DNA of 64,000 bases from Candidatus Hydrogenedens sp. (GCA_049968235.1 JBMFRC010000007.1:64001-128000); one strand, 5' to 3'. Positions 2,286 through 59,244 are shown, numbered from the stretch's first letter. Notes: generated from the sequence alone by a model not told the origin. Numbers and translations are program-made.

Positions 2286-4469
2286 TTAATCTACAATTAA
2301 TTCAACTCTTTCGGGCGTAGATTTAATTGAAATACTAACTATATTACTGGATAGTTTTACACTTTTAAGGGACTTCCCATCAATTAAAACCCTGTTTATT
2401 TTATACGATTCAGGTTTATAAATATATAAAGTTGCGGGAGATGTTATTGTCTCTTTAAATAAAACTTCTAATTTCTTTTCCTCATTTATCCATCGAGTAG
2501 AATTAATAAACTCCATCCCACACTGGTCTGCTGTTTTTACTCCAACTACGGATGGAATATCTGTCTTAACTATTAAACCAATATATTTTTCCTCCGGGTT
2601 ACCTTGAATAGTTTCACTATCCTCTATAAATTTCTCTCTTGCATAATCCCAGAAGAGGGCTTCATTATTTATGCTTTTCAATAATGACGCAGAGAAAGGT
2701 TCTACATTTTTTATAATATAAATAAGGGAATTATTAAAACTATCTTGAGTTGCATAACTCCGATAGTACCACACTGACGGCTGTTTTTTATTTGTATCAA
2801 AAGGTGTAAACATTACCTTTGTTTTAATGGTTAATTGAAGCATTTTCTTTGCAACATCTGAATTATTAAAATCACCTAACCACACTGCGGGTCCTGGGAA
2901 TGACTGAAGGAAAGTATTTGTCAAAAAGTTTTGAGTATTTACTAACTGATTGTTTATTTTTACAGGACTAATCCCTGTATTAAAACTTGATAAAGTTCCG
3001 CTAATTGCACAAAATGCAGTTAATTCTTGTTCCGAATTTATGATTACCTCAGAGGACTTTGGATATACTGGAATATTGCTGAAATAGTTGGAGAGTTCCT
3101 TTAACCCTTGAAACATTGCCTCTGTATAAGTTGCATGAATCTGTTCTAAAACTGTATCCGGGACAGAAATATCACAAACGATAAAGTCGGGATTCCATGA
3201 CAAAATTTTCTCCCACCGTTTCTTTGCTACTTCTAATCCATTTGGTGTATTAAATCTAACAAAAGCATACTCATCGGACACAGGTACTGAAAATTCACTT
3301 CCCACTGGAACTACCCATGGATTTAAAGACAAACCTACTTTCAATGCACTATGATTTTTCAATTGCTCAATTATAGGTTTCATATCTTTTGATAAGGTTT
3401 TTGTATTTCCCTTCAAAGACCCTAAAGGTTGTTCCCAGCCATTTGGAATGAGTATAGCATTTATACCGACACTGCTTGAAAAACTGGCAATTTTTGAGAG
3501 ATTCCCCAAGTTTACCTTCCCCGGGTCAACAGAAATCCAACCCCGAACAGGCTTTTCTATTACCATCTTAGAATAGGTCGGAGAAAGAGAGGAAAGAGCC
3601 CATATAAAGGTAGTATGAAGTTTATAAGCATCATTACTAAAGGAAACAAGTACTGGGTCACTTTCGATGGTTTCTCCAGCTGCAATTGTCAAAGAAGGTA
3701 AATATTCACATTCAACTGCCCCTGTCCAGTTATCACCGTCCCCTTCCGTAAATATCTTAGAATGAGATTTTCCTTGAGGACAGACTGCAAAAACAATTTT
3801 CTGACCTTTATTCGTAGTAAGTTCTAATATTTGGGATTCTTCTTCTGAGGTATAAGCCCAGTATCCGTTAATATTACCTACAGGTCTCCGTATTTTTTCA
3901 TTAGGAAGTCGTGTAATTAATCCTGCTACTGGAGGAAACACAAAAGGTTTAATCTTAGCAATAGTGATAGGGCTTGTTCCATTATTGGTTATAAGTGTAC
4001 TAAAAAGTACAAAACTACACTGCTTAAAACTGGTAACACGCTGTTGGATTAAAATATCATTTTTTATAGGGAATATAGCGGTAAAATGCGTAGCAGGACC
4101 AAAAACACTATCCACTGCTACTCGGTCCGTAAATGCATTACCCAATGACTCTGCGGAAATTTCTTCACCCGTTTTTAATTGTATCGAAGGACCATAACCT
4201 TCGATAATAGTCATCTCCGAATAATTATCGGGTACGGTATAAAAAATATGCCAATCTCCATTCATCTCATCAAAATCAATCCCCATATTTTCCCATGAAA
4301 AAGTATATCTATGGCGTAAAACCCAGGGAGATGAACGAGGTTGAGGCACTTCATCTTCAACTTTTTTCTTCTTTTTTGCCGCTGACCAGCCATCAATAGA
4401 AAGCAAAGCAATAAAAGTTAACAGGAGGAGAAAAATAACATAACGATTGGTTTTCTTTTTTACAAACAT
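2286..4469 (-). CDS. hypothetical secreted protein (727 aa), possible carbohydrate-active enzyme
   Basis: N-terminal signal peptide (MFVKKKTNRYVIFLLLLTFIALLSIDGWSA) followed by lysine run; no motif I can name confidently. Confidence 0.5.
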   Translation of the reverse strand: MFVKKKTNRYVIFLLLLTFIALLSIDGWSAAKKKKKVEDEVPQPRSSPWVLRHRYTFSWENMGIDFDEMNGDWHIFYTVPDNYSEMTIIEGYGPSIQLKTGEEISAESLGNAFTDRVAVDSVFGPATHFTAIFPIKNDILIQQRVTSFKQCSFVLFSTLITNNGTSPITIAKIKPFVFPPVAGLITRLPNEKIRRPVGNINGYWAYTSEEESQILELTTNKGQKIVFAVCPQGKSHSKIFTEGDGDNWTGAVECEYLPSLTIAAGETIESDPVLVSFSNDAYKLHTTFIWALSSLSPTYSKMVIEKPVRGWISVDPGKVNLGNLSKIASFSSSVGINAILIPNGWEQPLGSLKGNTKTLSKDMKPIIEQLKNHSALKVGLSLNPWVVPVGSEFSVPVSDEYAFVRFNTPNGLEVAKKRWEKILSWNPDFIVCDISVPDTVLEQIHATYTEAMFQGLKELSNYFSNIPVYPKSSEVIINSEQELTAFCAISGTLSSFNTGISPVKINNQLVNTQNFLTNTFLQSFPGPAVWLGDFNNSDVAKKMLQLTIKTKVMFTPFDTNKKQPSVWYYRSYATQDSFNNSLIYIIKNVEPFSASLLKSINNEALFWDYAREKFIEDSETIQGNPEEKYIGLIVKTDIPSVVGVKTADQCGMEFINSTRWINEEKKLEVLFKETITSPATLYIYKPESYKINRVLIDGKSLKSVKLSSNIVSISIKSTPERVELIVD

Positions 4470-18820: not shown

Positions 18821-18880
18821 GTGTTATACTACACCTCAATCTTTCCATTATTCTATTTTAATCTACTAAAGGAATTTATC

Positions 18881-20218
18881 ATGAAATCTTCTATCTTAAA
18901 ACGAACATTAAAATGGACATTATATAGTATATCAATCTTTATTGTCCTGATTTTAATTGCTTTCCTGTTCCTTTTCCGTAATGCGATATATAATCGCTAT
19001 GTAGAATTCCCTCGTGAAAAAAAAGCGTGGGAAGAACTCCGAAGACAATATCAGCCACCCTCTTATGATGATGGTTGGAATGATTATGCGGGCGTTTGTC
19101 ATAGTCATTCCGAATTATCCCACGATAGTCAGGTACCATTTGAAGAAATTCTGAGAGCACTAAAACAAGAAAAACGGCAATTTATTTGCATGTCAGACCA
19201 TTGTGATGAGGGCAAAGCAGACTATTCCAAACAATGGCGGGGTGAACATGACGGTGTCCTTTTCATACCAGGCTATGAGATGAATTACGGTTTTATGCCA
19301 TGGGGACTACCTCCTGAAACTGTTCTGGATTGCAATAAGGACCCCGAAAACCTTGCCCGGGAAATTCATGAAAAAGGTGGATTATTATTCTTTGCTCATT
19401 CGGAAGAACCACGCGAATGGCAATTACCTGAACTTAACGGTATGGAAATCTACAATATTCACACAAACTTTAAAAGCCTTGATAAACAATTTATACTTTA
19501 CAAATTAGCACCCAATATAATCCTTAATATAAATAAATACCATGAACAACTTTTAAGAAGCATTTTCAGCCCGTTAACAGAAGTTATAAAAAGATGGGAT
19601 GAAATGAATATAAGTAGAAAGATAGTCGGAATATCCGCCAATGATTGCCACCAGAATACGGGCTTTGTTGGCAAAATAACTCCTCAAGGAACCCTCTACA
19701 TTGAAGATACCAGTCCACGTAAAATAGGCGAATATAAATTAAATCTCCTTTCCCGTCTCCTATTGCGTATTCTTTTTGGAAAACTGGAACCAGGAAAAAC
19801 CCTATTTCATGTTCAATTAGACCCTTATCCCCTTATGGTTCGTTATGTCTCCACCCATGTTTTAGCCCATGATTTATCCGAACAATCTATTCTGGAATCT
19901 CTAAAAGAAGGTCGTGTCTTCGTAGGGTTTGAAATGCTTGCGGAAACAACAGGTTTTGTTTTCTTCGCTGATGATGGAAATGTAAAAGCAGTTTGTGGAG
20001 AAAAAATTCCTTTAACTCCGAACCTATCGCTAAAAATGGCTTCTCCTTATCCCTGTAAATTTATCATCTATCGTCATGGAATTGTTCTTCAGGAACATGA
20101 AGGTAGAGATTTTGAATGGAAACCCACAGAACAGGGTAAATATCGTGTGGAAGCACAATTATATTTAAATAAAAAATGGGTCCCCTGGGTTTATACAAAT
20201 CCGATTGAAATATTTTAG
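18881..20218 (+). CDS. membrane-anchored PHP-domain phosphoesterase
   Basis: Start moved to MKSSILKRTL (SD AAAGGA upstream). N-terminal TM helix; CHSHSELSHDS and ICMSDHCDE His/Asp clusters of the PHP fold. Confidence 0.6.
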   Translation: MKSSILKRTLKWTLYSISIFIVLILIAFLFLFRNAIYNRYVEFPREKKAWEELRRQYQPPSYDDGWNDYAGVCHSHSELSHDSQVPFEEILRALKQEKRQFICMSDHCDEGKADYSKQWRGEHDGVLFIPGYEMNYGFMPWGLPPETVLDCNKDPENLAREIHEKGGLLFFAHSEEPREWQLPELNGMEIYNIHTNFKSLDKQFILYKLAPNIILNINKYHEQLLRSIFSPLTEVIKRWDEMNISRKIVGISANDCHQNTGFVGKITPQGTLYIEDTSPRKIGEYKLNLLSRLLLRILFGKLEPGKTLFHVQLDPYPLMVRYVSTHVLAHDLSEQSILESLKEGRVFVGFEMLAETTGFVFFADDGNVKAVCGEKIPLTPNLSLKMASPYPCKFIIYRHGIVLQEHEGRDFEWKPTEQGKYRVEAQLYLNKKWVPWVYTNPIEIF

Positions 20219-22868: not shown

Positions 22869-23951
22869 ATGTACTTGAAAAATTTTTATGCACGGTCTTT
22901 CCGATGTATTACGGATTTAAATGTAGAATTTCATCCGGAGATGAATATTATTATAGGAGCCAATGCACAGGGCAAAACTTCTTTATTGGAGGCAGTCCAT
23001 TTCTTATCATTAGCTCGTAGTTTAAGGACAAATAATGAAAGGGAATTGGTGCAATATGAAAAGGATGGTTTTTTACTTAAAGGGGAAGTTATATCTGATG
23101 AGAAAATAACGGAGTCAATATTCATTGATATGAAATGGGTAAAAGGAGATAAGAGGATTCATGTCAATGGTATTGGTCTTGAAAGAGTAAGCGAATTAAT
23201 TGGAAAGATGCGTATAGTATTCCTGACAAGTGATTTTTCCGACCTTGTAAGTGAAGGGGCAAGTCATCGCAGGCGGTTTATGGACGTCCAACTTTCCCAG
23301 ATGGATAGTGGATACCTTCATGCACTGCAAGGGTACCAGCGAGCGCTTCGTCAAAGGAATGAATTACTTCGCAAACCCGATGTAAAACAAGATGAATTAT
23401 GGGTTTGGGAATTACAAATGGCTGAATTTGCCAGAACGCTTATTGGTAAGCGGAGTAGTTTTATAAAAAGTATCAAACCTTTTGCATCGGATATTCACAC
23501 CCAGATTATATCAGATGAAAAATTAGAAATTTGTTATTTACCGGATGTTGCGGAAGAAGTATTTTTGAAGAAATTAGAAGAGAATCGTAATACAGATATT
23601 CAGAGAGGGCAAACAATTCATGGTCCACATAGAGACGATATAGAAGTAAGGATTAATGGCTATCCTGTTCGTCAATATGCATCACAAGGGCAGAAAAAAA
23701 CCTGTGCCTATGCAATACGTATTTCAGAAATTTATCTAAGTAAAGAGGGGAAGAAAGATTGTCCCATCGTGCTTGCAGATGAATTATTTTCAGACATTGA
23801 CCCACAACGAGGGAAAAAATTTTTAGAAACAATTCCGGAAGGAGTGCAGGTTATAATAACAGCAGTAGATGAAATTTTTTGTCGGAATTTAGAAAGAAAT
23901 TTTGATATGTATCGAATAAGGAGAGGTAGTCTTGAAAGGTCACAGGAGTAA
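22869..23951 (+). CDS. recF: DNA replication and repair protein RecF
   Basis: Walker A GANAQGKTSLLEAV at the N-terminus; RecF-family length and C-terminal signature region. Confidence 0.9.
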   Translation: MYLKNFYARSFRCITDLNVEFHPEMNIIIGANAQGKTSLLEAVHFLSLARSLRTNNERELVQYEKDGFLLKGEVISDEKITESIFIDMKWVKGDKRIHVNGIGLERVSELIGKMRIVFLTSDFSDLVSEGASHRRRFMDVQLSQMDSGYLHALQGYQRALRQRNELLRKPDVKQDELWVWELQMAEFARTLIGKRSSFIKSIKPFASDIHTQIISDEKLEICYLPDVAEEVFLKKLEENRNTDIQRGQTIHGPHRDDIEVRINGYPVRQYASQGQKKTCAYAIRISEIYLSKEGKKDCPIVLADELFSDIDPQRGKKFLETIPEGVQVIITAVDEIFCRNLERNFDMYRIRRGSLERSQE

Positions 23952-24243
23952 ACCTAAAAAAATATCAGAAATAATTTCAAATATTAAAAACTCAGAGGCT
24001 CTTAAATTAAGTTTTGAATTAGTTCCCATATGGAATCAATGGAAACAGATTGTGGGTGAAGAATTTTCATCGCTGTCAGAACCATCCGGATACCGACGGG
24101 GAAAACTTCACATAAAAGTGAAGAATACCACTGTTATGCACCGATTAACCTTTGAGAAGGAACAGATATTAAGAAAGATAAAAGAAATTCTTCCAAAGGA
24201 TGTTGTTAAAGATTTATTCTTTGAACTGGATGAAAAAGAATAG
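23932..24243 (+). CDS. DUF721-family protein commonly found downstream of recF
   Basis: 103 aa, overlaps recF by 20 nt; KLHIKVKNTTVMHRL...ILRKIKEIL pattern typical of DUF721. Confidence 0.65.
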   Translation: MKGHRSKPKKISEIISNIKNSEALKLSFELVPIWNQWKQIVGEEFSSLSEPSGYRRGKLHIKVKNTTVMHRLTFEKEQILRKIKEILPKDVVKDLFFELDEKE

Positions 24244-24268
24244 TAAAAATTTTTTGTGGTTTCGTTTT

Positions 24269-26803
24269 TTATTCCGAATTTTGCTCGTTTTCAGGGGTAT
24301 TTTCAAACAAGTCACCCGTTTCATCTTCATTTTCTTCTTCGGTGTAAGAACCTTCGGGTAATTCTCCTTCCGCGTCACTTTTTTTAATGGCTTTATCGGC
24401 GGAAGCAATTTTTGCTCCTTCACGTAGGTTCATTAATTGCACACCTTTGGTATTTCGACCAATCACGCGGATACTTTTAACGGGTATACGAAGCATTTTC
24501 CCATCCGTGGCAACAACTACAATATCTTCATCATCACTCACGGTGAGCATGGTAACTACATTACCATTACGTTCCTGCGTCTGTATGTTGATAATACCCT
24601 TTCCTCCACGATGCTGAATACGGTATTCCTTTACTTCTGTCCGCTTACCATAACCGTTTTCTGTAACGGTAAGAACGGTTAAATTATCTTTGGCAACAGA
24701 TACACCTACGACATAGTCATCTTTATCAAGACGAATACCTACTACTCCCTGAGCAGTTCTACCCATAGGACGAACATCTTTTTCAGGGAATCTTATTGCA
24801 AGACCTCTATGAGTTGCTAAAAGGACATTATCTATTCCGGAGGTAACAAGAACATCCATGAGTTCGTCACCTTGTTCTAAAGTAATTGCCTGGATACCTG
24901 TGGAACGAGGTTTGCTATAAGCGAATAATGGCGTTTTCTTGACGAGTCCTTTCCTAGTTACCATAAAGAGGAATTTACTTTCATCTTTTAGATTTTTTAT
25001 CGAAAGGAAAGCGGTAACTTTTTCCTTATCCCCAAGAGCAAGCAAATTCTTGATATTCCTTCCTCTTGCTGTTCTACCTGCTTCAGGAATCTCATGTACT
25101 TTTCGCCAATAAACACGCCCTTCATTGGTGAAAAACATGAGGTATTCATGAGCGGTAGCAGTAAAAACATGTTTTACAAAGTCATCTTCGGGAGTTTCCA
25201 TTCCCATAACCCCCTGACCTCTTCGTCGTTGTTTGCGAGATGTTGTCTGAGGCATGCGTTTAATATATCCCTGATTGGATACCGTTATAATCATGGCTTC
25301 GTCGGCAATAAGGTCTTCAATATCAAAATCTTCTATTGTCTCTAAAATCTCGGTTTTTCTCTCATCTCCATATTTTTCACGAATTTTCTCCACTTCTTTC
25401 CGAACTTCAGCAAGAATGTTCTCACGACTGGAAAGTATGTGCTTAAGCCGTTTAATTTCTTTAAGCAGGTTGTCGTATTCTTCCTGTAATTCTTTTCGTT
25501 CTAATCCGGTTAATCTCCGTAGAGGCATGGCAAGAATGGCTTTCGCCTGTTCAACAGAAATGTCTAATTTCTTACATAATTTTGTTTGTGCTTCTTCTGC
25601 GTTTGCAGATTTCCGTATTAAATTAATTACTTCGTCAATCTGGTCAATGGCTTTTAATAAGCCTTCAAGGATATGTGCACGTCTTTCTGCCTGTTCTAAA
25701 TCAAAACGAGTTCTTCGTTCTACAATTTCAGATCTATACTGGACATAGTGTTGAATCATGTCTTTCAGATTTAATACGCGAGGGATATTATTTACTAATG
25801 CTAAAAAATGGATTCGTGATGTATTTTGTAATTGTGTATGCTGGTATAGTTGATTTAGGACAACCTGAGGATTGGCATCACTTTTGAGTTCAATAATTAA
25901 ACGCATACCTTCACGGTCAGACTCATCACGGAGGTCAGTTATACCGGATACTTTATTATTTTCTACCGCCTTTGCAATAGATTCAATAACGGTTTGTTTT
26001 GTAACCTGATATGGAATTTCTTCAACAAGCAAACTTTTCTTTTTCGTCTTTTCTTGAGAAACAACTTTAATTCTTGCCCGAAGTTTTACCTGGCCCGTTC
26101 CAGTTTTATAGGCACGGCGAATCCCTTCCTTACCGCAGATAATAGCCCCAGTGGGGAAATCGGGTCCCGGAACAATTTCCATAAATTCTTCTACAGGAGC
26201 GGAGGGATTATCTATGTAGTAAATAATTGCATTACAGATTTCTGTTAAATTATGCGGGGGACAGTCTGTAGCCATGCCAACAGCAATACCATAAGACCCG
26301 TTTACAAGGAGGTTCGGGAAACCGGAAGGTAAAACAGTGGGTTCATCGAGACGACCATCGAAATTGGGACGCATCTCAACAGTATTTTTTTCTATATCCG
26401 TCAACATTTCTAAAGCAATGGGTGTTAACCTTGCTTCGGTATATCGATATGCTGCTGGACTGTCTCCATCAATAGAACCAAAGTTCCCCTGTCCATCAAC
26501 CATCGGATAACGCATGTTCCAATCTTGTGCTAATCGAACAAGAGCATCATAAACTGCCTGGTCCCCGTGTGGATGATATTTTCCGAGACATTCACCGACA
26601 ATAGTAGCACACTTGCGGTATGGACGATTGGGTGTTAATCCTAATTGATGCATAACAAAGAGTATTCGTCTTTGAACCGGTTTCAGCCCATCACGAATAT
26701 CGGGCAATGCACGGCTTACAATTACACTCATGGAATAATCGAGGAAAGCGGTTTGCATTTCCTGTTCAATAGGGACTGGCTTTATATTCTGATTCACCGC
26801 CAT
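24269..26803 (-). CDS. gyrA: DNA gyrase subunit A
   Basis: AFLDYSMSVIVSRALPDIRDGLKPVQRRIL, active-site Tyr region, C-terminal beta-pinwheel repeats and an acidic tail. Confidence 0.95.
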   Translation of the reverse strand: MAVNQNIKPVPIEQEMQTAFLDYSMSVIVSRALPDIRDGLKPVQRRILFVMHQLGLTPNRPYRKCATIVGECLGKYHPHGDQAVYDALVRLAQDWNMRYPMVDGQGNFGSIDGDSPAAYRYTEARLTPIALEMLTDIEKNTVEMRPNFDGRLDEPTVLPSGFPNLLVNGSYGIAVGMATDCPPHNLTEICNAIIYYIDNPSAPVEEFMEIVPGPDFPTGAIICGKEGIRRAYKTGTGQVKLRARIKVVSQEKTKKKSLLVEEIPYQVTKQTVIESIAKAVENNKVSGITDLRDESDREGMRLIIELKSDANPQVVLNQLYQHTQLQNTSRIHFLALVNNIPRVLNLKDMIQHYVQYRSEIVERRTRFDLEQAERRAHILEGLLKAIDQIDEVINLIRKSANAEEAQTKLCKKLDISVEQAKAILAMPLRRLTGLERKELQEEYDNLLKEIKRLKHILSSRENILAEVRKEVEKIREKYGDERKTEILETIEDFDIEDLIADEAMIITVSNQGYIKRMPQTTSRKQRRRGQGVMGMETPEDDFVKHVFTATAHEYLMFFTNEGRVYWRKVHEIPEAGRTARGRNIKNLLALGDKEKVTAFLSIKNLKDESKFLFMVTRKGLVKKTPLFAYSKPRSTGIQAITLEQGDELMDVLVTSGIDNVLLATHRGLAIRFPEKDVRPMGRTAQGVVGIRLDKDDYVVGVSVAKDNLTVLTVTENGYGKRTEVKEYRIQHRGGKGIINIQTQERNGNVVTMLTVSDDEDIVVVATDGKMLRIPVKSIRVIGRNTKGVQLMNLREGAKIASADKAIKKSDAEGELPEGSYTEEENEDETGDLFENTPENEQNSE

Positions 26804-26840
26804 GTTTTTCTCCTAAGGTGTTTTATGTATCTATTAGAAA

Positions 26841-29315
<2,475 letters not shown>

Positions 29316-29473
29316 TTACAAGGGAAGGAATTAAGTAAGTTTATTATATCAAATTACGATAATAAAGGGCAATAAAAAATACTTAAAAATAAATACTTAA
29401 TTGAAGAAAAATATAATTCATTAGAGGAGAAATTGTTTGCAAATAAGAATCAATCAATAATTTAGAAAAAAAA

Positions 29474-29550
29474 TGGTGGGCGATACTGGACTTGAACCAG
29501 TGACCCCTTGCATGTCAAGCAAGTACTCTAACCACCTGAGCTAATCGCCC
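29474..29550 (-). tRNA. tRNA-Val (anticodon GAC)
   Basis: Minus-strand read GGGCGAT-TA-GCTC-AGGTGGTTA-GAGT-A-CTTGC-TTGACAT-GCAAG-GGGTC-ACTGG-TTCAAGT-CCAGT-ATCGCCC-ACCA folds as a cloverleaf with 7/7 acceptor pairs and CCA encoded. Confidence 0.85.
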
Positions 29551-37825: not shown

Positions 37826-38842
37826 GTGGCAAAAAACAAAACCAGAAAGGATATGCGTATGTTAAAAAAGAAAGGATTTACTTTAATTGAGTTGTTGGTT
37901 GTAATTGCTATTATTGGTATACTTGCAGCCATCTTGCTACCTGCCCTTGCCCGTGCACGCGAAGCGGCTCGCCGTTCCAGTTGTCAAAACAATCTGAAAC
38001 AATGGGGACTTGTCCTTAAAATGTATTCCAACGAAGCAAGAGGAGAACGATTTCCTCCTGTTCAATTTGGTGCCTATCCACAAATTAACGGAAATATCGA
38101 AGTTCGTGCCGACCTTTGTCCCAGTACCTTCTTAATCTATCCTGAATATCTCAACGACCCTATGATAGCCTTTTGTCCATCGGACTCCGACTATCGTCAA
38201 ACAATTACTCGTGCCAAATATCCTGACCGTGATGATTGGTGTATAAATGTATATGCCAGTGATACAGTATCCTGTGCCTCTGCTATGGATTCAAGTTATA
38301 TTTACTTAGGATTGGTCATGGACCGTATAGGCGATGAATGGCCTATGGTAGATATTACCCCTATGGTAAATGTTTTGAATTCACTTGGAGCAGGTCCTGT
38401 ATCCGGTTCAGGGAATGCCCCCGCACAGTTAGTTTACGGATTAATGGCATTGGCAAAACCGGAACTCATTACTGCTGTTAATACAAAAGATAATGCAGGT
38501 ATTATGCGCGTCGTTGATGCAGACATAACAAGTTCTATACTTGATGGCTATGGTAATGGAGGAACCAATACCGTTTACCGGTTGCGTGAAGGGATTGAAA
38601 GATTTCTCATCACAGATATTAATAATCCCGCATCCAGTTCAAAAGCACAGAGTAGTCTACCTATCATGTTCGATAAAGTATCAACTGATGCTTCAAACTT
38701 TAACCATATTCCAGGAGGGTCGAATGTCCTTTATCTTGATGGACATGTCGAATTTCTCCGTTACCAACCGACGGGCGGAACTGCTCCTGTAACACAAGCA
38801 GTAGCAGTTGTCATCGGAGTTCTTGTTTCCGCATTGACATAA
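37826..38842 (+). CDS. DUF1559 (H-X9-DG) protein with prepilin-type N-terminal cleavage/methylation domain
   Basis: [43 protein letters not shown] at the N-terminus and [17 protein letters not shown] near the C-terminus; hallmark of Planctomycetota-type genomes. Confidence 0.85.
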
Positions 38843-53038: not shown

Positions 53039-53380
53039 ATGATTGAAATGACTAAAAAGGAAGAATTTGATAGTTTATTAAAAAATTCAAACGATATAAT
53101 TTTAATCATCTTCAAACATAGTAACCGTTGTCCTATCTCATGGAATGCCAAAAAAGAAATCGATACTTTTCTTGAAAAATATACAGAATACAATAACAAT
53201 ACCTATCTCATTAATGTCATTGATTCACGTCCTCTATCAAATTATATCGCTGAAACACTTCATGTAGAACATCAATCACCACAAATTATTATCCTGAAAA
53301 ATGGCGCCGTTGTGAAGCATATCTCTCATTTAACCATAACTGAAAAAAATCTAGAAAATATCCTCCAACCCTTAAAATAA
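53039..53380 (+). CDS. YtxJ-like (DUF2847) thioredoxin-fold protein
   Basis: FKHSNRCPISWNA matches the conserved KHSxxCPIS motif of YtxJ/monothiol bacilliredoxin-like proteins. Confidence 0.7.
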   Translation: MIEMTKKEEFDSLLKNSNDIILIIFKHSNRCPISWNAKKEIDTFLEKYTEYNNNTYLINVIDSRPLSNYIAETLHVEHQSPQIIILKNGAVVKHISHLTITEKNLENILQPLK

Positions 53381-53501
53381 TCAAAAAATTTTTTGATTAT
53401 TTATTTCCATTTACTTATTATATATAGTATTATATACACAATATAAATACTATATAATGTATTTTTCATTTATTAAAAATTTATGTTTGGAGGAAAGAAA
53501 A

Positions 53502-55268
53502 GTGCGAATTGGAAATCGTTCAAGACTCTTCTGGACACAAGGAAAGTCTATCTTTAATAAAAAAAATTCCCCTGATTCTTTAGATGATTCCGTAAAAAAT
53601 GAAGAGAAAGAGGCTCTGTTATCAAAAACAGATGTAGATAACAAAGAAGAAATAATCGAAACAACAAACCACGATGTAGATGCAATTGAATTTGGAAAAA
53701 AAATTTCTCCGTTATTAACAAACCTTAGAAAAGTTATTGAAGAAGGAAAATTATTTCCGAACTCTCGTGAATGGGTTGATTCTGCATTACCTATATTAGG
53801 TAATTGTATCGAAGTCGCCTCTCAAAATAGACGAAAAGATTTAGAGCAATTATTTGTAGATATTGCGAGAATTATTTATTCCTCGGATAGGGTTGGAAAA
53901 TCCCATCTTTCTATCGAACCATCTCTTGAATTATATTCCCTTTTATGCTGTGTTGTTGCTGACTATATGCGAGGAAAAACCAACAAACTTACCTTTGAAC
54001 AATGGACAAAGTCCTATCAGAAAGTTGCAACCGATTTTGTTAATTCAGGCATCCGTCTAGTAACTGATAATGAGGAACCTATAACAATCTCTGTATCAGA
54101 AACAGAAAATACCTATTCTTCTTTAGAAGATATATCTGCTCCCACATCTGTGGACCATACCCCATCTCAAGACATCCTTCCCTCAGTGGAAGAAATTCCT
54201 CCTCCCTTACCTGAAGTCGAAAACATAGAAATATCTCATACAGATAATCTAACAGAAGAAAAAAAATACGTCAAAAATACCACAGAAAGAACAGACAATA
54301 ATGACCCAATATTACAGGATAGTTCATCTTCATACACAGTTAAAACCTTATATTCAGAAACAATAGAAGAAACTCCTCCAGATACAAATCCATCACCAGA
54401 AACAAATGAAATTATAATTGAAAATAATGTCTCAATTACTAATATGGAAGAAGAAAATCCACAGGAACCTGAACCCATTATATCTACAACAGAACAACCC
54501 CCTGATATTGACATTTCAACTTTCCTCCAGCAAATCAGCCAATTACCTCAAAACGAAGTGAAGGAAATTTTATTAGATACATTAAAAGCTATTGTCAATG
54601 GAACACCAGAAACCGCAAAAACAAAAGCCATCGAACTTGCCCGAGAAATGGCAAAATTAGAAGTTGAAAAAGTAAAAACTGAGTATCGAGGGACAGAATA
54701 TCAGATAGAAAGTTTAAGTTCAGAGATACACCAGGTTGAAGAACAACTTAATATTTGTCAGAATGAAATCAAAACAATAGAAGAAGAATTAAAAGAACAA
54801 CAATCTATCATTCAAAAAACAGAGAAAGAAAAAAACACTTTAGAAAGGCATATTGAAAATACTCAAAACAAAATTGCAGATATCGAAAAAAGAATTTTAG
54901 AACTTCAACAACAAAAAGAAACAGAACTTACAAATCTAAACCAATACAATGAGCAACTTTCCACTACCGAAAAAAATATTGAATATCTCAATCAGTCCAT
55001 ATCCTCTCTCAAAGAATCTATTAGCGATTTTGAAAATCAAGCTATGACTCTACTCAAAAGAATGGATTCGCTTGAACTAACCAAATCTCAGAAAGAAACA
55101 CAGTTGGAACAACTCCAAAAACAGATAAAAGAAAGAGAATCTACAGTCCGCCGATTAGAAGAAACTTTATGGTTTCTCCAATCAGCAGAAAACAAATCCA
55201 TAAAGAATAACCCATCAAATCATCTAAATACACAAAACACCATAGACCTCTTTGACGGGAAGGTATAA
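53502..55268 (+). CDS. long coiled-coil protein with acidic/Pro-rich linker
   Basis: Probable GTG start 8 nt after GGAGG (the track ATG at 53457 sits inside a TATAAT-like box). Globular N-terminal domain, E/P/T-rich linker, about 200-aa heptad-rich coiled coil. Overlaps ftsA by 17 nt. Confidence 0.55.
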   Translation: MRIGNRSRLFWTQGKSIFNKKNSPDSLDDSVKNEEKEALLSKTDVDNKEEIIETTNHDVDAIEFGKKISPLLTNLRKVIEEGKLFPNSREWVDSALPILGNCIEVASQNRRKDLEQLFVDIARIIYSSDRVGKSHLSIEPSLELYSLLCCVVADYMRGKTNKLTFEQWTKSYQKVATDFVNSGIRLVTDNEEPITISVSETENTYSSLEDISAPTSVDHTPSQDILPSVEEIPPPLPEVENIEISHTDNLTEEKKYVKNTTERTDNNDPILQDSSSSYTVKTLYSETIEETPPDTNPSPETNEIIIENNVSITNMEEENPQEPEPIISTTEQPPDIDISTFLQQISQLPQNEVKEILLDTLKAIVNGTPETAKTKAIELAREMAKLEVEKVKTEYRGTEYQIESLSSEIHQVEEQLNICQNEIKTIEEELKEQQSIIQKTEKEKNTLERHIENTQNKIADIEKRILELQQQKETELTNLNQYNEQLSTTEKNIEYLNQSISSLKESISDFENQAMTLLKRMDSLELTKSQKETQLEQLQKQIKERESTVRRLEETLWFLQSAENKSIKNNPSNHLNTQNTIDLFDGKV

Positions 55269-56625
55269 AGCCTTGTTTAACAAAAGAATACAAATCATCG
55301 CCATAGATTTTGGTTCAAATAATATACGCGTTCTCATCGGAGAACAAACAAAAGATGGCAACATCTCCATTATTGGACATGGAACAGCCCCTTCCTCAGG
55401 CGCTATATCCAGGGGGCTAATACAAGAAATGGACTCCGCACGTCATGCCCTTCACGAAGCATTATCTATGGCTCAACAAAAAACTTACTCCATTTCGCCC
55501 AAATTAATTGCTATCGGCATTAATACGCCCCGTGCTGAAACATACACAAAAGAAGGCACTCTGGACCTGAAAAATGAAGAAATTTCTTTTGAACACCTCC
55601 AAAAGGTATTTACCATTGCTCAACAACAAGTTCCCAAATCTGATAAAGACCTATTAAACTCTCTTTACTCCTTCGAATGGTATATTGACAATTTTTTAGT
55701 GAAATATCCCTTAGGAATGAAAGCAGAACAACTTAAAATTCGTGTCCACTTTACCATTATCCCCAAAGTCATCATTGAGAACTTAAAATCTTGCGCAGAC
55801 AGTGAATTACATCCTTCCTATTCCGTCATGGAATATTTCGTATATAATCCCATTGCAACTGCTATAGGTTCATTAACTCCCGAAGAAATGGAGTTAGGAA
55901 CTTTACTGATAGATATCGGAAAAACTACAACAAACCTCACCCTGTTTTCAGGACATAAACTCATATATGCATCTACTTTCGATTTCGGAACCATATTCAT
56001 ATCGAGAGATGTTTCTTCTGTATTTAAAATAGACTTCGAGGAAGCACACAAACTCATCTGCGATTACGGGATTTCCGAAGAACTGATTAACAAATATATA
56101 AAATCAAATCTACCTATTGGGAACATTCCCCTCTCCCCTTCTTTAATCTCAAATGAACTAAGGGGAAAACCCATCTCCCTTCAAACTGTTTTAGATGGTT
56201 TTAATAAAAATGTATCCAAAATCGAACTGGAAGGCGTTATTTTCGCCCGTGTTCAAGAAATGATTACAACCTTAAAAAAAGAAATTGAAAAAAAAGATTT
56301 GACACAATCTTTACTTCGGGGTATTGTTCTCGCAGGGGGTGGTGCTAATTTGCAAAATATGAATATCCTCATAGAAAAAATATTTAACACACCTGTGCGA
56401 ATAGCAAAACCTCAATATGCCATCCCTAATATACCTCAATCTATTAATAACCCGGAATTTGCCACTGTTGTAGGAATACTTCGCGATGGGTTTTCTTATT
56501 ACCACGCAAACAAAAAAAGACAGGTATTCCAGAATAAAAAAATCATTAGTCAACTATGGATTACTTTAATTTCACCCTTCAAAAAACAAAAAGGGGCTAA
56601 AACGACTTCTACAAAATCGAATTAG
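55252..56625 (+). CDS. ftsA: cell division protein FtsA (actin-like ATPase)
   Basis: IIAIDFGSNNIRVLIGE, LLIDIGKTTTNLTLF, GIVLAGGGANLQNMNILIEKIFNTPVRIAKP parallel E. coli FtsA phosphate-1, phosphate-2 and adenosine motifs; basic C-terminal tail. Confidence 0.75.
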   Translation: MTGRYKALFNKRIQIIAIDFGSNNIRVLIGEQTKDGNISIIGHGTAPSSGAISRGLIQEMDSARHALHEALSMAQQKTYSISPKLIAIGINTPRAETYTKEGTLDLKNEEISFEHLQKVFTIAQQQVPKSDKDLLNSLYSFEWYIDNFLVKYPLGMKAEQLKIRVHFTIIPKVIIENLKSCADSELHPSYSVMEYFVYNPIATAIGSLTPEEMELGTLLIDIGKTTTNLTLFSGHKLIYASTFDFGTIFISRDVSSVFKIDFEEAHKLICDYGISEELINKYIKSNLPIGNIPLSPSLISNELRGKPISLQTVLDGFNKNVSKIELEGVIFARVQEMITTLKKEIEKKDLTQSLLRGIVLAGGGANLQNMNILIEKIFNTPVRIAKPQYAIPNIPQSINNPEFATVVGILRDGFSYYHANKKRQVFQNKKIISQLWITLISPFKKQKGAKTTSTKSN

Positions 56626-56777: not shown

Positions 56778-58220
56778 ATGACAAAAAAAACTATTGAACC
56801 TCGTTTACTCAAAGGTTTTCAAGACCACCTACCACCAAAAAGTAAAATTCGACAGGAGATAAAAGAAAAAATTATTTCCGTCTATGAAAAATATGGTTTT
56901 GCATTCATCGAAACACCCGCAATTGAATTGAAAGAAATCTTACTCGGTCCCGGAGGAGAAAATATCAATAAAGAAATTTTCTTCTTAGAAACACCCGAAG
57001 GGGAACAATCCTGTCTTCGATTTGACCATACAGTTCCCTTTGCCCGCGTCATTGCCCAATATCCTGAAAAAATAAAAATCCCTTTCCGTAGATACACCAT
57101 TGGGTCTGTATGGCGTGCCGATAAACCCGGTGTGGGGAGATACCGTGAATTCGTCCAGATGGATATTGATATTGCCGGAACACCTAACACCGCTGCTGAT
57201 GCAGAAATCATTGCCATCATGGTAGAAGTTATGAAAATCCTCGGATTTAATAATTTTCAATCACAAATCAACAATAGAAAATTAATTGACGCTCTATTAA
57301 TACAAAATGGTATTAAAGATATAGATACACAAAAACACATCCTGCGAGTTATTGATAAACTGCAAAAAATAGGTATCGATAATATTCGTAAAGAACTCGG
57401 AGAAGGTCGTATAGATGATTCCGGTGACCCTATCAAAGGCGTCGGATTACCGAATAGTATTATTGAAAAAATTATTAGTTTCATAACTATAACCGGCAAA
57501 ACACGCAAAGAAACTATTCAGAATATCAAACAATACTTATCAGACCAAACAGAATCTCAACAGGCAATCTTTACTATGGAAGAACTTGACCAATATCTAT
57601 CCGCTCTTGATATATCTGATACGGAAGCATCCTTTTCCACTTCACTTACCCGAGGACTGGACTACTATTCCGGACCTGTTTTTGAAATGATACTCAAAAA
57701 TGCTCCTCATATCGGCTCGGTTATGGGCGGTGGAAGGTATGACGGACTCATTTCACGATTTACAGACAAAACTATCCCCTGCACAGGAATGTCAATCGGT
57801 ATAGATAGACTTATAAATGCTATGGAAGAATTAAAACTAATAGATACACAAAAACCAATATATGATGTCATTATTACTCGAGTAGGAAAAGTTCCTATAA
57901 CGGAAGCACTTTCTATAGCAAAAGAATTGCGCAATCACGATTTAAAGGTCAGCGTCTATCTCGGGAAAAAAACAAAAGAAACTTTAGGCGAACAATTATC
58001 ACATGCAGACCACTACAACATACCCATTGCTGTTATATTGGGTGAAGATGAACTCAAAAAAGGGGAAATCTGTGTAAAAGATTTATACTATGGAGAAAAA
58101 GCTCGTAAGGATATAAAAGATAGAAATCAATACCGTGAAGCAGGAACAGTAAGTCAGGTTACTATCTCACGGGAAAAATTGGTAGAAACAATCTTTTCAT
58201 TTCTCAATAAAAATTATTGA
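56778..58220 (+). CDS. hisS: histidine--tRNA ligase
   Basis: Class II motif 2 (FRRYTIGSVWRAD...GRYREFVQMDIDIAG), motif 3/His-binding GGGRYDGL, plus C-terminal anticodon-binding domain (rules out HisZ). Confidence 0.8.
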   Translation: MTKKTIEPRLLKGFQDHLPPKSKIRQEIKEKIISVYEKYGFAFIETPAIELKEILLGPGGENINKEIFFLETPEGEQSCLRFDHTVPFARVIAQYPEKIKIPFRRYTIGSVWRADKPGVGRYREFVQMDIDIAGTPNTAADAEIIAIMVEVMKILGFNNFQSQINNRKLIDALLIQNGIKDIDTQKHILRVIDKLQKIGIDNIRKELGEGRIDDSGDPIKGVGLPNSIIEKIISFITITGKTRKETIQNIKQYLSDQTESQQAIFTMEELDQYLSALDISDTEASFSTSLTRGLDYYSGPVFEMILKNAPHIGSVMGGGRYDGLISRFTDKTIPCTGMSIGIDRLINAMEELKLIDTQKPIYDVIITRVGKVPITEALSIAKELRNHDLKVSVYLGKKTKETLGEQLSHADHYNIPIAVILGEDELKKGEICVKDLYYGEKARKDIKDRNQYREAGTVSQVTISREKLVETIFSFLNKNY

Positions 58221-58687
58221 GGGTCACCAATTACAGGGTCATTATTTGATGGTAATTGACTCTCATTGTAGCGAATAATTCCTGTATGGTCTATACGGAA
58301 ATACCTATTCCCCGAATAACCTATTGTCTGAGGTGAAGCATAACATATAAACTGGACATTTGTTACTTGTGGCATAGAATATACATACCCCTGACGGATA
58401 CAGCCTTCACCCCATGATTCATCCAAATACCGCGTCGTCAGATTGGGAGATGAATTTACAAGGCTGTTAAAATCACCATAAGTATTATTTGCAGAATGAT
58501 ATGACACCTGTGCAGTACAAATAGCCCTTAAATTCCAGATAGTAGATGCCTCATTAGAATGAATTCGTGAACGTATTAATGTCGGAATAGTTATCGCAGA
58601 TATTATTGCGATTACTGCTACTACTACCATCATCTCTATAAGTGTAAACCCTTTTTGCCTTGTTCTCCACTGACGCCATTTATTCAT
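58214..58687 (-). CDS. prepilin-type pilin/pseudopilin
   Basis: KGFTLIEMMVVVAVIAIISAITIP class III signal; C-terminal SGNRYFRIDHTGIIRYN shared with the neighbouring paralog. Confidence 0.8.
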   Translation of the reverse strand: MNKWRQWRTRQKGFTLIEMMVVVAVIAIISAITIPTLIRSRIHSNEASTIWNLRAICTAQVSYHSANNTYGDFNSLVNSSPNLTTRYLDESWGEGCIRQGYVYSMPQVTNVQFICYASPQTIGYSGNRYFRIDHTGIIRYNESQLPSNNDPVIGDPQ

Positions 58688-58812: not shown

Positions 58813-59244
58813 TTATTGTTCTCCGATGGGCGGGTCACCAGCGCCAGCCTGTCCACCTGTATTGAAGCGGATTACACCACTGGCATCTGTGTAGAAATAA
58901 CGATTACCACTTACACCAACTTCACTCGGGTCTGCATTGCAGGTAAAGTTATTTGGTCCCGGAGAAGCCAGAGTAAATGTATAACCTTGCTTAATACCAG
59001 CCCAGTTTCCTTCTAAGAATGGAGGGGTTGCCCCTGTTAGGTCTGCAAAATCACCCGTATAAGAACCATTTGCAGAGTTATAGGCAACTTCAGCACCAAC
59101 AATGGCTTTTAAGTTGCTGATTGCAGCAGATTCATTGGACTGCAATCTGGAACGAAGCAGGTTGGGAATCGCAATTGCTGCGATAATAGCGATGATTGCT
59201 ACCACAATCATCAATTCAATGAGTGTGAAACCTTTATTTTTCAT
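58813..59244 (-). CDS. type IV pilin-like protein (prepilin N-terminal methylation domain)
   Basis: [30 protein letters not shown]; SD AAGGAG 8 nt upstream; own terminator downstream, suggesting the highly expressed major subunit. Confidence 0.85.
   Translation of the reverse strand: MKNKGFTLIELMIVVAIIAIIAAIAIPNLLRSRLQSNESAAISNLKAIVGAEVAYNSANGSYTGDFADLTGATPPFLEGNWAGIKQGYTFTLASPGPNNFTCNADPSEVGVSGNRYFYTDASGVIRFNTGGQAGAGDPPIGEQ

What the first reader, a model, noticed from the sequence alone, without database searches (positions are those of the whole stretch)
53457..56625. FtsA encoded apart from any dcw neighbours, translationally coupled to a long coiled-coil protein
The 55252-56625 product aligns motif-by-motif with FtsA, yet it is not flanked by ftsQ or ftsZ and is followed by hisS. 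Immediately upstream, overlapping by 17 nt, is a roughly 590-aa protein with a globular head, an acidic E/P/T-rich disordered linker and a roughly 200-aa coiled coil. FtsZ-less PVC lineages are known, and how (or whether) FtsA works there is unclear. A dedicated coiled-coil partner for an actin-like ATPase could represent an alternative division or cytoskeletal module.
Basis: partly seen in the sequence, partly recalled or inferred. Interest (0 to 1): 0.6.

Follow-up and report, generated by a model that had tools for sequence, protein, structure and literature searches.

The report
FtsA with phylum-specific coiled-coil partner
In the uncultured phylum Hydrogenedentota the cell-division protein FtsA is encoded away from ftsZ and always directly after a previously undescribed, very acidic coiled-coil protein, which is probably its lineage-specific partner; relatives do carry FtsZ, so this is not FtsZ-less division.

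Summary
The coiled-coil gene (CC) most likely starts at GTG 53502 and encodes 588 aa. ftsA most likely starts at TTG 55273, 4 nt after the CC stop, so the 17-nt overlap is an ORF-calling artefact.

The window is from a Candidatus Hydrogenedens MAG, which NCBI places in the FCB group, not PVC. The 450-aa product passes NCBI's FtsA equivalog cut-off. It has the SHS2/1C domain and a C-terminal amphipathic helix.

CC belongs to a family with no Pfam or NCBIfam model. An exhaustive HMMER search found 78 representatives, and nearly every named member is Hydrogenedentota. Its parts are a basic N-terminal peptide, a five-helix head with a CheA-P1-like fold but no conserved His, an acidic disordered linker, a roughly 200-residue coiled-coil hairpin, and a conserved acidic C-terminal "LLF"-type motif.

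In every informative locus, ftsA lies immediately downstream of CC. This includes 22 of 22 metagenome loci, with G+C from 36 to 68%. The flanking genes vary, and ftsZ or ftsQ is never nearby.

A published table lists FtsZ in all five Hydrogenedentes genomes surveyed and no SepF. It lists one FtsA in four of them, usually on a different contig from FtsZ. Best reading: a bona fide but divergent divisome FtsA with a dedicated, co-inherited partner. The mechanism is inferred.

The parts
53489..53494 (+). Shine-Dalgarno sequence (GGAGGA) for the coiled-coil gene
   Evidence: Read directly from the sequence. It lies 7 nt upstream of GTG 53502.
53502..55268 (+). Coiled-coil partner gene (CC), 588 aa, GTG start. 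The longest ORF begins at ATG 53457.
   Evidence: ORF. Start revised from the SD sequence and from the family N-terminus M-R-[FI]-G. No Pfam or NCBIfam family covers it. Net charge is -43 and there is no transmembrane segment.
53502..53564 (+). Conserved basic N-terminal peptide (MRIGNRSRLFWTQGKSIFNKK; family consensus MRFGKRxK...GRRLFG)
   Evidence: Conserved across the family. Disordered in the AF2 models.
53601..53624 (+). Short conserved helix EEKEALLS (family motif VA[ST]EER[SN]ALL)
   Evidence: E35 and L39 are at least 90% conserved. AF2 gives a helix at 33-40 with low confidence.
53661..54044 (+). Five-helix-bundle head domain (aa 54-181)
54045..54512 (+). Acidic, E/P/T/S-rich disordered linker (aa 182-337); variable in length and sequence across the family
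   Evidence: pLDDT is below 50. Composition. Poorly conserved in the alignments.
54513..54599 (+). Conserved helix pair at the base of the coiled coil (aa 338-366; family motif LLxTAQxAxAxG...AKxLAL)
   Evidence: A363 and A372 are invariant; G367, K373 and A376 are at least 90% conserved in 50 sequences. AF2 gives helices at 338-346 and 351-366.
54606..55205 (+). Coiled coil: two helices of about 95-100 residues (aa 369-462 and 469-568), predicted as an antiparallel hairpin with a conserved apex (I465, L468)
   Evidence: AF2 model. Heptad periodicity without Pro or Gly. Sub-threshold matches to SMC and Rad50 arms. Foldseek matches to SMC arms and a chemoreceptor hairpin, none significant.
55239..55253 (+). 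Conserved C-terminal motif T-I-D-L-F (family: acidic tail ending in [LMF]-L-F at the C-terminus)
   Evidence: Invariant in 11 genus-level homologues. L583 and F584 are at least 90% conserved in 50 diverse members. Tail survey. The motif lies upstream of the ftsA SD, so its conservation is at the protein level.
55257..55263 (+). Shine-Dalgarno sequence (GGGAAGG) for ftsA, inside the last codons of CC. The CC stop TAA is at 55266-55268.
   Evidence: Read directly from the sequence.
55273..56625 (+). ftsA (450 aa, TTG start). The longest ORF begins at TTG 55252.
   Evidence: TIGR01174 223.8 bits against a cut-off of 175.85, plus Pfam FtsA and SHS2_FTSA. 100% identical to NCBI 'cell division protein FtsA [Candidatus Hydrogenedens sp.]'. 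Best PDB relatives are FtsA structures.
55537..55752 (+). FtsA subdomain 1C (SHS2 insert)
   Evidence: Pfam PF02491, 29.8 bits against a cut-off of 25.4.
56077..56172 (+). Clade-specific insertion in FtsA subdomain 2B (about 32 aa, against 7-11 aa in canonical FtsA)
   Evidence: Alignments. Present in all 24 Hydrogenedentota FtsAs at 23-36 aa.
56530..56583 (+). C-terminal amphipathic helix of FtsA (putative membrane-targeting sequence)
   Evidence: Hydrophobic moment peaks at ISQLWITLISPFKK. The equivalent C-terminal amphipathic segments in high-G+C relatives end in ...KYFF.

Best explanation
This is the organism's bona fide, though divergent, divisome FtsA. In the phylum Hydrogenedentota its gene has left the ftsQ-ftsA-ftsZ arrangement. 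It is now inherited and co-expressed as a two-gene unit with a phylum-specific, cytoplasmic, strongly acidic coiled-coil protein (CC).

Shown:
- FtsA identity.
- The CC architecture.
- Strict CC-then-ftsA adjacency across the phylum in changing neighbourhoods.
- Clade-specific changes in FtsA.

From the literature: FtsZ is present and SepF absent in relatives, with one FtsA per genome where FtsA was found.

Inferred mechanism:
1. FtsA still tethers FtsZ to the membrane through its C-terminal amphipathic helix.
2. CC binds FtsA directly. The contact is probably one of its conserved short terminal motifs. One candidate is the basic N-terminal MRFGKR peptide, which would act like the N-terminal peptides of FtsN or PilN that dock on FtsA or PilM. 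The other is the acidic C-terminal ...LLF tail, which would act like the FtsZ C-terminal peptide that docks on subdomain 2B.
3. The five-helix head, the long flexible acidic linker and the coiled-coil hairpin then scaffold, space or regulate FtsA oligomers at the division site. In model bacteria accessory proteins such as ZipA, EzrA or ZapA/ZapB fill this kind of role.
For: FtsA identity:
- TIGR01174 above the equivalog cut-off in the window and in five of six distant relatives.
- SHS2/1C domain.
- Full-length match to solved FtsA structures.
- C-terminal amphipathic helix retained.

Co-conservation of CC and ftsA:
- Genus-level loci L001-L013.
- Distant members L014-L018, whose heads are 22-40% identical to the window's.
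- 22 of 22 informative metagenome loci with G+C of 0.46-0.68.
- The most divergent branches, L053-L055.

Variable flanks: BrxC/HisS, sulfatase, DUF892, APS kinase, GlgP, GH38, BON, URO-D, RuvA, DUF6600 and RND efflux genes. No dcw genes and no FtsZ appear within about 10 kb.

Tight linkage: the gap is 2-316 nt, and 3-4 nt in the genus Hydrogenedens with the SD inside CC.

Co-occurring FtsA peculiarities in all 24 sequences: DFGS in phosphate-1, a K/R/H plus S/T in place of the GG of DIGGGT in phosphate-2 in 23 of the 24, and a 23-36-aa segment in 2B.

Genome content of relatives: Pende et al. 2021, Supplementary Data 2, lists FtsZ in five of five Hydrogenedentes genomes and SepF in none. It lists a single FtsA in four, on a different contig from FtsZ in three. 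FtsA is therefore the only known FtsZ anchor available.

Restriction to the phylum: CC has no Pfam or NCBIfam model. All but one of the named members are Hydrogenedentota.
Against: - No physical or localisation evidence exists. The interaction between CC and FtsA is inferred from gene order alone.
- The complete genome of this MAG could not be searched. FtsZ, and the absence of a second FtsA, are shown only for relatives and through a published table.
- The altered phosphate-2 loop, the 2B insertion and only about 25% identity to canonical FtsA could mean that FtsA's biochemistry or partners have changed.
None of the candidate contact motifs has been tested.
- One 'Hydrogenedentes' genome in the table (CG1_02_42_14) has adjacent ftsZ and ftsA. 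Whether it has CC is unknown.
Confidence: 0.6

Rival explanations
1. FtsA has been repurposed. Together with CC it forms a membrane-associated cytoskeletal module that works independently of FtsZ, or competes with it. In this reading CC's acidic ...LLF tail occupies the pocket on subdomain 2B that normally takes the FtsZ C-terminal peptide, and the coiled coil cross-links FtsA filaments.
For: - ftsA is uncoupled from ftsZ in three of the four Hydrogenedentes genomes that have both, and ftsZ is absent from all loci examined here.
- FtsA is very divergent, at about 23-25% identity to canonical FtsA. Its phosphate-2 loop is changed, and it has a 15-25-residue insertion in 2B, the subdomain that binds FtsZ in T. 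maritima (the T. maritima point is from my own knowledge of PDB 4A2A).
- Some CC tails end in ...E-G-x-L-L, resembling the T. maritima FtsZ C-terminus. This is recalled from memory and was not tested.
Against: - FtsZ is present and SepF absent in all five surveyed genomes, with only one FtsA listed per genome. FtsZ would then have no known membrane anchor.
- The FtsA equivalog score, the 1C domain and the membrane-targeting helix are all retained.
- The CC tail motif does not match the FtsZ C-terminal consensus D-I-P-x-F-L.
Confidence: 0.15
2. CC is not an FtsA-binding protein. It has a separate function that only needs to be co-expressed with division. Examples are chromosome or nucleoid organisation, or acting as a Ter or origin linker like ZapB-MatP or an SMC-like protein. 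The operon link would then reflect timing, not contact.
For: - Its only database similarities are coiled-coil arms of SMC and Rad50.
- The basic N-terminal peptide could bind nucleic acid.
- In L017, scpB lies a few genes downstream.
Against: - The SMC and Rad50 scores are far below their cut-offs, and CC has no ATPase head.
- Strict immediate adjacency through a G+C range of 36-68% and many rearrangements is typical of physically interacting pairs.
- A net charge of -43 argues against DNA binding by the bulk of the protein.
Confidence: 0.15
3. The actin-like gene is really a PilM-type pilus or secretion ATPase-fold protein, and CC is its PilN-like partner. The pilin-like genes nearby would then be part of the same system.
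For: - Prepilin-type genes lie downstream of hisS in the window.
- There are weak PilM_2 and TIGR01175 matches.
- PilM does bind the N-terminal peptide of a neighbouring gene's product (established knowledge).
Against: - pilM scores 39 bits against a cut-off of 133, whereas ftsA scores 224 bits against 176.
- The pilin genes are absent from the neighbourhood in most clades.
- CC has no transmembrane segment and lies upstream, not downstream.
- FtsA's C-terminal amphipathic helix is present.
Confidence: 0.03

Closest known systems
Canonical FtsA of the dcw cluster (E. coli, Vibrio maritimus, T. maritima; PDB 7Q6D, 7Q6F, 4A2A)
   Same: - Actin fold with a 1C (SHS2) subdomain.
- Score above the TIGR01174 cut-off.
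- C-terminal amphipathic helix.
- Single copy per genome in relatives.
   Different: - Not next to ftsQ or ftsZ.
- About 23-25% identity.
- Phosphate-2 loop D-[IM]-G-[KRH]-[ST]-x-T instead of DIGGGT.
- A 15-25-residue insertion in subdomain 2B.
- Always preceded by the CC gene.
FtsA- and FtsZ-associated scaffolds of model bacteria: ZipA, EzrA, ZapA/ZapB, SepF
   Same: - Lineage-restricted accessory proteins built from long linkers or coiled coils.
- They organise the early divisome.
- Several act through short peptide motifs.
   Different: - No sequence or domain homology.
- CC has no transmembrane anchor, unlike ZipA and EzrA.
- It has a five-helix HPt-like head and a very acidic linker.
- It is operon-linked to ftsA rather than scattered in the genome.
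PilM-PilN and FtsA-FtsN peptide docking
   Same: An FtsA-fold protein binds a short N-terminal peptide of a partner. PilN is encoded next to pilM. The cytoplasmic peptide of FtsN is basic, like CC's MRFGKR N-terminus.
   Different: - PilN and FtsN are bitopic membrane proteins; CC is soluble.
- The motif sequences are unrelated.
- The interaction is only hypothesised here.
MamJ-MamK (magnetosome chain) and other actin-like-protein-plus-adaptor pairs such as ParR-ParM
   Same: An acidic, partly disordered adaptor is encoded beside an actin-like ATPase and links its filament to something else.
   Different: - MamK and ParM are not FtsA.
- There is no homology to CC.
- No cargo is evident here.
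CheA P1 / HPt five-helix bundle
   Different: - 6-15% identity.
- No conserved phospho-accepting histidine.

Membership tests
FtsA (NCBIfam TIGR01174; Pfam PF14450 + PF02491) | Whole-protein score above the curated equivalog cut-off | tested here: met
   223.8 bits against 175.85. Five of six distant Hydrogenedentota orthologues are also above the cut-off; L015 scores 110 bits.
FtsA (NCBIfam TIGR01174; Pfam PF14450 + PF02491) | Actin-like fold with a 1C (SHS2) subdomain in place of 1B | tested here: met
   PF02491 at 29.8 bits against 25.4. The alignment to FtsA structures 7Q6F and 7Q6D covers query positions 8-407.
FtsA (NCBIfam TIGR01174; Pfam PF14450 + PF02491) | C-terminal amphipathic membrane-targeting helix | tested here: met
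   The sequence ISQLWITLISPFKK has the highest hydrophobic moment. Homologous ...KYFF tails are present in relatives. Membrane binding itself was not tested.
FtsA (NCBIfam TIGR01174; Pfam PF14450 + PF02491) | Canonical nucleotide-binding motifs (phosphate-1 DxGT, phosphate-2 DxGGGT, adenosine GGG) | tested here: inconclusive
   Phosphate-1 is DFGS and the adenosine motif GGGA is present. Phosphate-2 is DIGKTTT instead of DIGGGT, and 23 of the 24 clade members carry K/R/H at that position. The effect on ATP binding is unknown.
FtsA (NCBIfam TIGR01174; Pfam PF14450 + PF02491) | Location in the dcw cluster next to ftsQ and ftsZ (typical, not obligatory) | tested here: not met
   No ftsZ or ftsQ in the window or within about 10 kb in any of 55 loci.
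FtsA (NCBIfam TIGR01174; Pfam PF14450 + PF02491) | Binds the FtsZ C-terminal peptide and recruits the late divisome | not testable with these tools
   Needs biochemistry. No Hydrogenedentota FtsZ sequence could be retrieved.
PilM (TIGR01175 / PF11104) | Score above the family cut-off | tested here: not met
   39.3 bits against 133. The Pfam PilM_2 match is partial, covering residues 194-267.
SMC / Rad50 (for CC) | ABC-type ATPase head domains flanking the coiled coil, and a score above the cut-off | tested here: not met
   Only the coiled-coil arms match, at 16-40 bits against cut-offs of 567-1087. There is no ATPase domain.
HPt / CheA P1 phosphotransfer domain (for the CC head) | Conserved solvent-exposed phospho-accepting histidine on the helical bundle | tested here: not met
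EzrA / ZipA-type membrane-anchored Z-ring scaffolds (for CC) | N-terminal transmembrane anchor | tested here: not met
Crescentin / intermediate-filament-like (for CC) | Rod-domain match above the Pfam cut-off | tested here: not met
   PF19220 at 16.6 bits against 100.

The most novel reading that the evidence does not exclude
CC and FtsA form a self-contained cytoskeletal unit. CC's acidic C-terminal ...LLF peptide occupies the FtsZ-tail pocket on the enlarged 2B subdomain, or its basic N-terminal peptide docks like FtsN's. CC's coiled-coil hairpins bundle FtsA filaments on the membrane. FtsA's link to FtsZ would then be replaced, gated or made indirect. That would be a new way to organise an actin-like division protein, evolved once in a whole phylum.
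Probability: 0.15. Interest if true: 0.8.

Novelty: new variant of a known kind. Interest (0 to 1): 0.55.

Why it matters
The pairing of ftsA and ftsZ is one of the most conserved gene orders in bacteria. In the first part of Pende et al.'s table, about 57 of 63 genomes that have both genes keep them adjacent or within four genes (my hand count).

Hydrogenedentota break this rule as a phylum. They replace it with an equally strict pairing of ftsA with an undescribed protein family, and FtsA itself has changed in its ATP loop and in subdomain 2B.

That gives a concrete, testable candidate for a new FtsA regulator or adaptor. Both proteins can be expressed recombinantly, so the uncultured status of the phylum is not a barrier. 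It also offers a natural experiment on how FtsA oligomerisation and FtsZ tethering can be rewired.

The finding does not show FtsZ-independent division.

Tried and rejected
- **Genome scan with the genus-level FtsA alignment.** It returned only five loci, all Candidatus Hydrogenedens or close relatives.
- **Third word-indexed protein search with the head alignment.** It gave only six short hits.
- **Metagenome scan with the diverse alignment A4.** It failed because no stretch was conserved enough. It was repeated with a narrower alignment, A6.
- **Direct search for ftsZ.** No tool gave access to the rest of the MAG, so the presence of FtsZ rests on a published supplement for relatives.
- **AF2 'pseudo-complex'.** The afdb50 fold library was unavailable.
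- **Promoter and terminator scan.** Counts were at chance level, so it was uninformative.
- **Literature searches.** Searches for Hydrogenedentes or Hydrogenedentota with FtsZ, FtsA or cell division found nothing on this pair. Supplements of two Hydrogenedentota genomics papers hold no fts data.
- **Readings considered and rejected.** SMC or Rad50 relative, true HPt domain, EzrA or ZipA homologue, PilM-PilN system, and β-clamp-binding motif. For the last, TIDLF resembles QLxLF, but the family consensus [DE]-L-L-F lacks the Gln and the register.
Full report
**What is in the sequence**

The downstream product is FtsA by every sequence test available.
- It scores 223.8 bits on NCBIfam TIGR01174, against an equivalog cut-off of 175.85.
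- It matches Pfam FtsA (89 bits) and SHS2_FTSA (29.8 bits).
- A profile of its close homologues hits the solved FtsA structures of Vibrio, Xenorhabdus, E. coli, Staphylococcus and Thermotoga, and only weakly MreB or PilM.
- PilM scores far below its cut-off (39 against 133 bits).

hisS follows at 56778-58220, and a ytxJ/brxC bacilliredoxin gene precedes the pair. Pfam annotation of the larger ORFs across the window found recF, gyrA, gyrB and many metabolic genes, but no dcw gene. tblastn with FtsZ found nothing.

**Corrected gene starts**

The identical protein in NCBI is 450 aa long and is named 'cell division protein FtsA [Candidatus Hydrogenedens sp.]'. That length corresponds to a TTG start at 55273. 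This start is preceded by GGGAAGG at 55257-55263, and the upstream gene's stop is TAA at 55266-55268. The genes are therefore 4 nt apart. The 17-nt overlap arises from taking the first in-frame TTG.

The coiled-coil gene (CC) has a strong GGAGGA at 53489-53494, 7 nt before GTG 53502. All family members begin M-R-[FI]-G at that point. CC is therefore 588 aa long and starts at 53502. Termination-reinitiation coupling remains plausible in this genus, where the gaps are 3-4 nt. It is not a family feature, since the gaps range from 2 to 316 nt.

**Organism**

The window is from a Candidatus Hydrogenedens MAG. NCBI places the phylum Hydrogenedentota in the FCB group, not PVC.

**Anatomy of CC**

AF2 with a 25-sequence head alignment gives a confident five-helix bundle, with pLDDT above 90 for residues of about 56-190. 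The full-length model, built with 50 sequences, shows the following:
- the head at 54-181;
- a disordered segment at 182-337;
- short conserved helices at 338-366;
- two long helices at 369-462 and 469-568, separated by a short break.

Confidence is high on both long helices, which is the signature of an antiparallel hairpin. Foldseek accordingly pairs the model with SMC arms and a chemoreceptor hairpin, though none of these matches is significant. A heptad scan agrees with a coiled coil from about 379 to 560 without Pro or Gly. The linker is rich in E, D, P, T and S. The protein has a net charge of -43 and no transmembrane segment.

**The CC family**

The word-indexed search found only 11 genus-level homologues. 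An exhaustive HMMER search with the head (aa 1-215) against 1.84 billion representatives found 78 proteins. Nearly all are 590-840 aa long with the head at the N-terminus. They share these features:
- a basic N-terminal peptide (MRFGKRxK...GRRLFG);
- a VA[ST]EER[SN]ALL helix;
- the head;
- a variable acidic linker;
- a conserved helix pair (LLxTAQxAxAxG...AKxLAL);
- the coiled coil, with a conserved apex (I465, L468);
- a DIExTI motif;
- an acidic tail that ends in [LMF]-L-F at the C-terminus. In the genus Hydrogenedens this is T-I-D-L-F followed by four more residues.

TIDLF lies upstream of the ftsA Shine-Dalgarno sequence, so its invariance is selection on the protein. Members that carry a source name are Candidatus Hydrogenedentes or Hydrogenedentota. 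The one exception is a 276-aa fragment on a 1.1-kb contig labelled Hyphomonas.

**Co-conservation with ftsA**

This is the main result. Genus-level relatives show the same block, BrxC-CC-FtsA-HisS, but there the whole neighbourhood is syntenic. Distant members decide the question.
- **L014-L018:** CC heads only 22-40% identical to the window's are each followed by ftsA. The flanks are sulfatase and GlgP, APS kinase and GlgP, or RuvA.
- **Metagenome loci:** a scan with a head alignment returned 34 loci with G+C of 0.46-0.68. A local hmmsearch showed ftsA immediately downstream, on the same strand, in all 22 loci where the contig continues past CC. The other 12 end inside or right at CC.
- **Most divergent branches:** P0082/P0132 and P0116 show the same arrangement.

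Flanking genes differ widely and include none from the dcw cluster. FtsZ was not detected in any locus. The CC-ftsA pair is the only conserved unit.

**FtsA in this clade**

Across 24 non-redundant Hydrogenedentota FtsAs:
- the phosphate-1 motif is DFGS, against D[IL]GT in canonical FtsA;
- the phosphate-2 loop is D-[IM]-G-[KRH]-[ST]-x-T, against DIGGGT;
- the 2B segment after YGI[SN] is 23-36 residues, against 7-11;
- the C-terminus keeps an amphipathic helix, ending in ...KYFF in high-G+C clades.

Identity to canonical FtsA is 23-25%, and it is only 30-34% between the window and high-G+C clade members. In the alignment to V. maritimus FtsA, the insertion falls between residues 279 and 284. 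From memory, this is the 2B loop that contains E. coli R286, the FtsA* position at the FtsA-FtsA interface, and it lies near the FtsZ-tail site. That mapping is an inference, not a test.

**Is FtsZ present, and is there a second FtsA?**

I could not read the rest of this MAG. Pende et al. 2021 (PMC8178401), Supplementary Data 2, has columns for FtsZ, SepF and FtsA (header seen). It lists five Hydrogenedentes genomes.
- All five have FtsZ and none has SepF.
- Four have exactly one FtsA.
- In UBA2224, UBA6118 and the SAG JGI 0000039-J10, FtsZ and FtsA are on different contigs.
- Only CG1_02_42_14 has adjacent accessions.

In the first part of the same table, by my hand count, about 57 of 63 genomes with both genes have them adjacent or within four genes. 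So the phylum is not FtsZ-less. Its FtsA appears to be single-copy, and the separation from ftsZ is a real and unusual phylum-level trait.

**Interpretation**

The best-supported reading is a bona fide divisome FtsA that acquired a dedicated partner. Three observations make a direct physical complex the most economical explanation:
- strict adjacency through extensive rearrangement and a twofold G+C range;
- tight spacing between the two genes;
- concurrent lineage-specific changes in FtsA.

FtsZ is present and neither SepF nor ZipA is known in the phylum, so FtsA most likely still anchors FtsZ.

How CC acts is inferred. Its conserved terminal short motifs are the likeliest contact points. The basic N-terminus would act by analogy with the FtsN and PilN peptides, and the acidic ...LLF tail by analogy with the FtsZ C-terminal peptide. 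The head, the long acidic linker and the roughly 14-nm hairpin would serve as scaffold or spacer.

Rivals are listed separately with their evidence:
- an FtsZ-independent or FtsZ-competing FtsA-CC module;
- a co-expressed but non-interacting function such as nucleoid organisation;
- a PilM-like system, which is disfavoured by the family scores.

**Novelty and score**

No paper in the searchable library mentions this pair or FtsA in Hydrogenedentota. The non-adjacency is visible, but not remarked on, in a published supplement. CC is an undescribed family. I rate the finding as a new variant of a known kind: an FtsA-based divisome with a new operon partner and a modified FtsA. It is of moderate to good interest because it yields a concrete in-vitro test. 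The more exciting FtsZ-less premise is not supported.

Noticed in passing
window 22869-29550: recF (+), gyrA (-), gyrB (-) and tRNA-Val(GAC) cluster here. This might suggest a region near the replication origin, yet cumulative GC skew falls monotonically across the whole 64 kb with no switch.
   Followed up: no
window 37826-38842, 58214-58687, 58813-59244: Several prepilin-type (N_methyl, one with DUF1559) pilin-like genes. Two lie just downstream of hisS. They neighbour the CC-ftsA block only in the low-G+C clade and in L022, so they are not part of the conserved unit.
   Followed up: partly
window 53039-53380: A ytxJ/brxC monothiol bacilliredoxin gene (TIGR04019, 109 bits) sits immediately upstream of CC in the window, L001, L003 and L015. 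It is absent there in high-G+C clades. It hints at a bacillithiol-type redox system in this lineage.
   Followed up: partly
window 55918-55938 (FtsA phosphate-2 loop) and all 24 orthologues: The GG of the actin-fold phosphate-2 motif DIGGGT is replaced by a basic residue plus Ser or Thr (DIGKTTT, DMGRSTT) in 23 of the 24 Hydrogenedentota FtsAs (L018 has NLGASST). This is unusual for FtsA, and its effect on nucleotide handling is unknown.
   Followed up: partly
window 2286-4469 (-) and 18821-20218 (+): Two large ORFs (727 aa and 465 aa) have no Pfam match at E of 1e-5 or better.
   Followed up: no
P0093 (941 aa; NCBI contig of 118 kb): A weak match to the CC head lies at the C-terminus (residues 786-929, E = 5e-5) of a protein with a different N-terminal architecture. 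It could be a second context for the head fold, or noise.
   Followed up: no
CC family C-termini (e.g. P0054, P0080, P0090, P0097): Some members end in ...E-G-x-L-L rather than ...L-L-F. From memory, this resembles the T. maritima FtsZ C-terminus (...GLEGLL), whose terminal carboxylate docks on FtsA 2B in PDB 4A2A. It is a lead for the contact site and was not tested.
   Followed up: no
Pende et al. 2021 Supplementary Data 2: Candidatus Aerophobetes also show FtsZ and FtsA on different contigs in two genomes. One 'Hydrogenedentes' genome (CG1_02_42_14) keeps them adjacent. Whether these lineages have or lack a CC-like gene is unknown.
   Followed up: no
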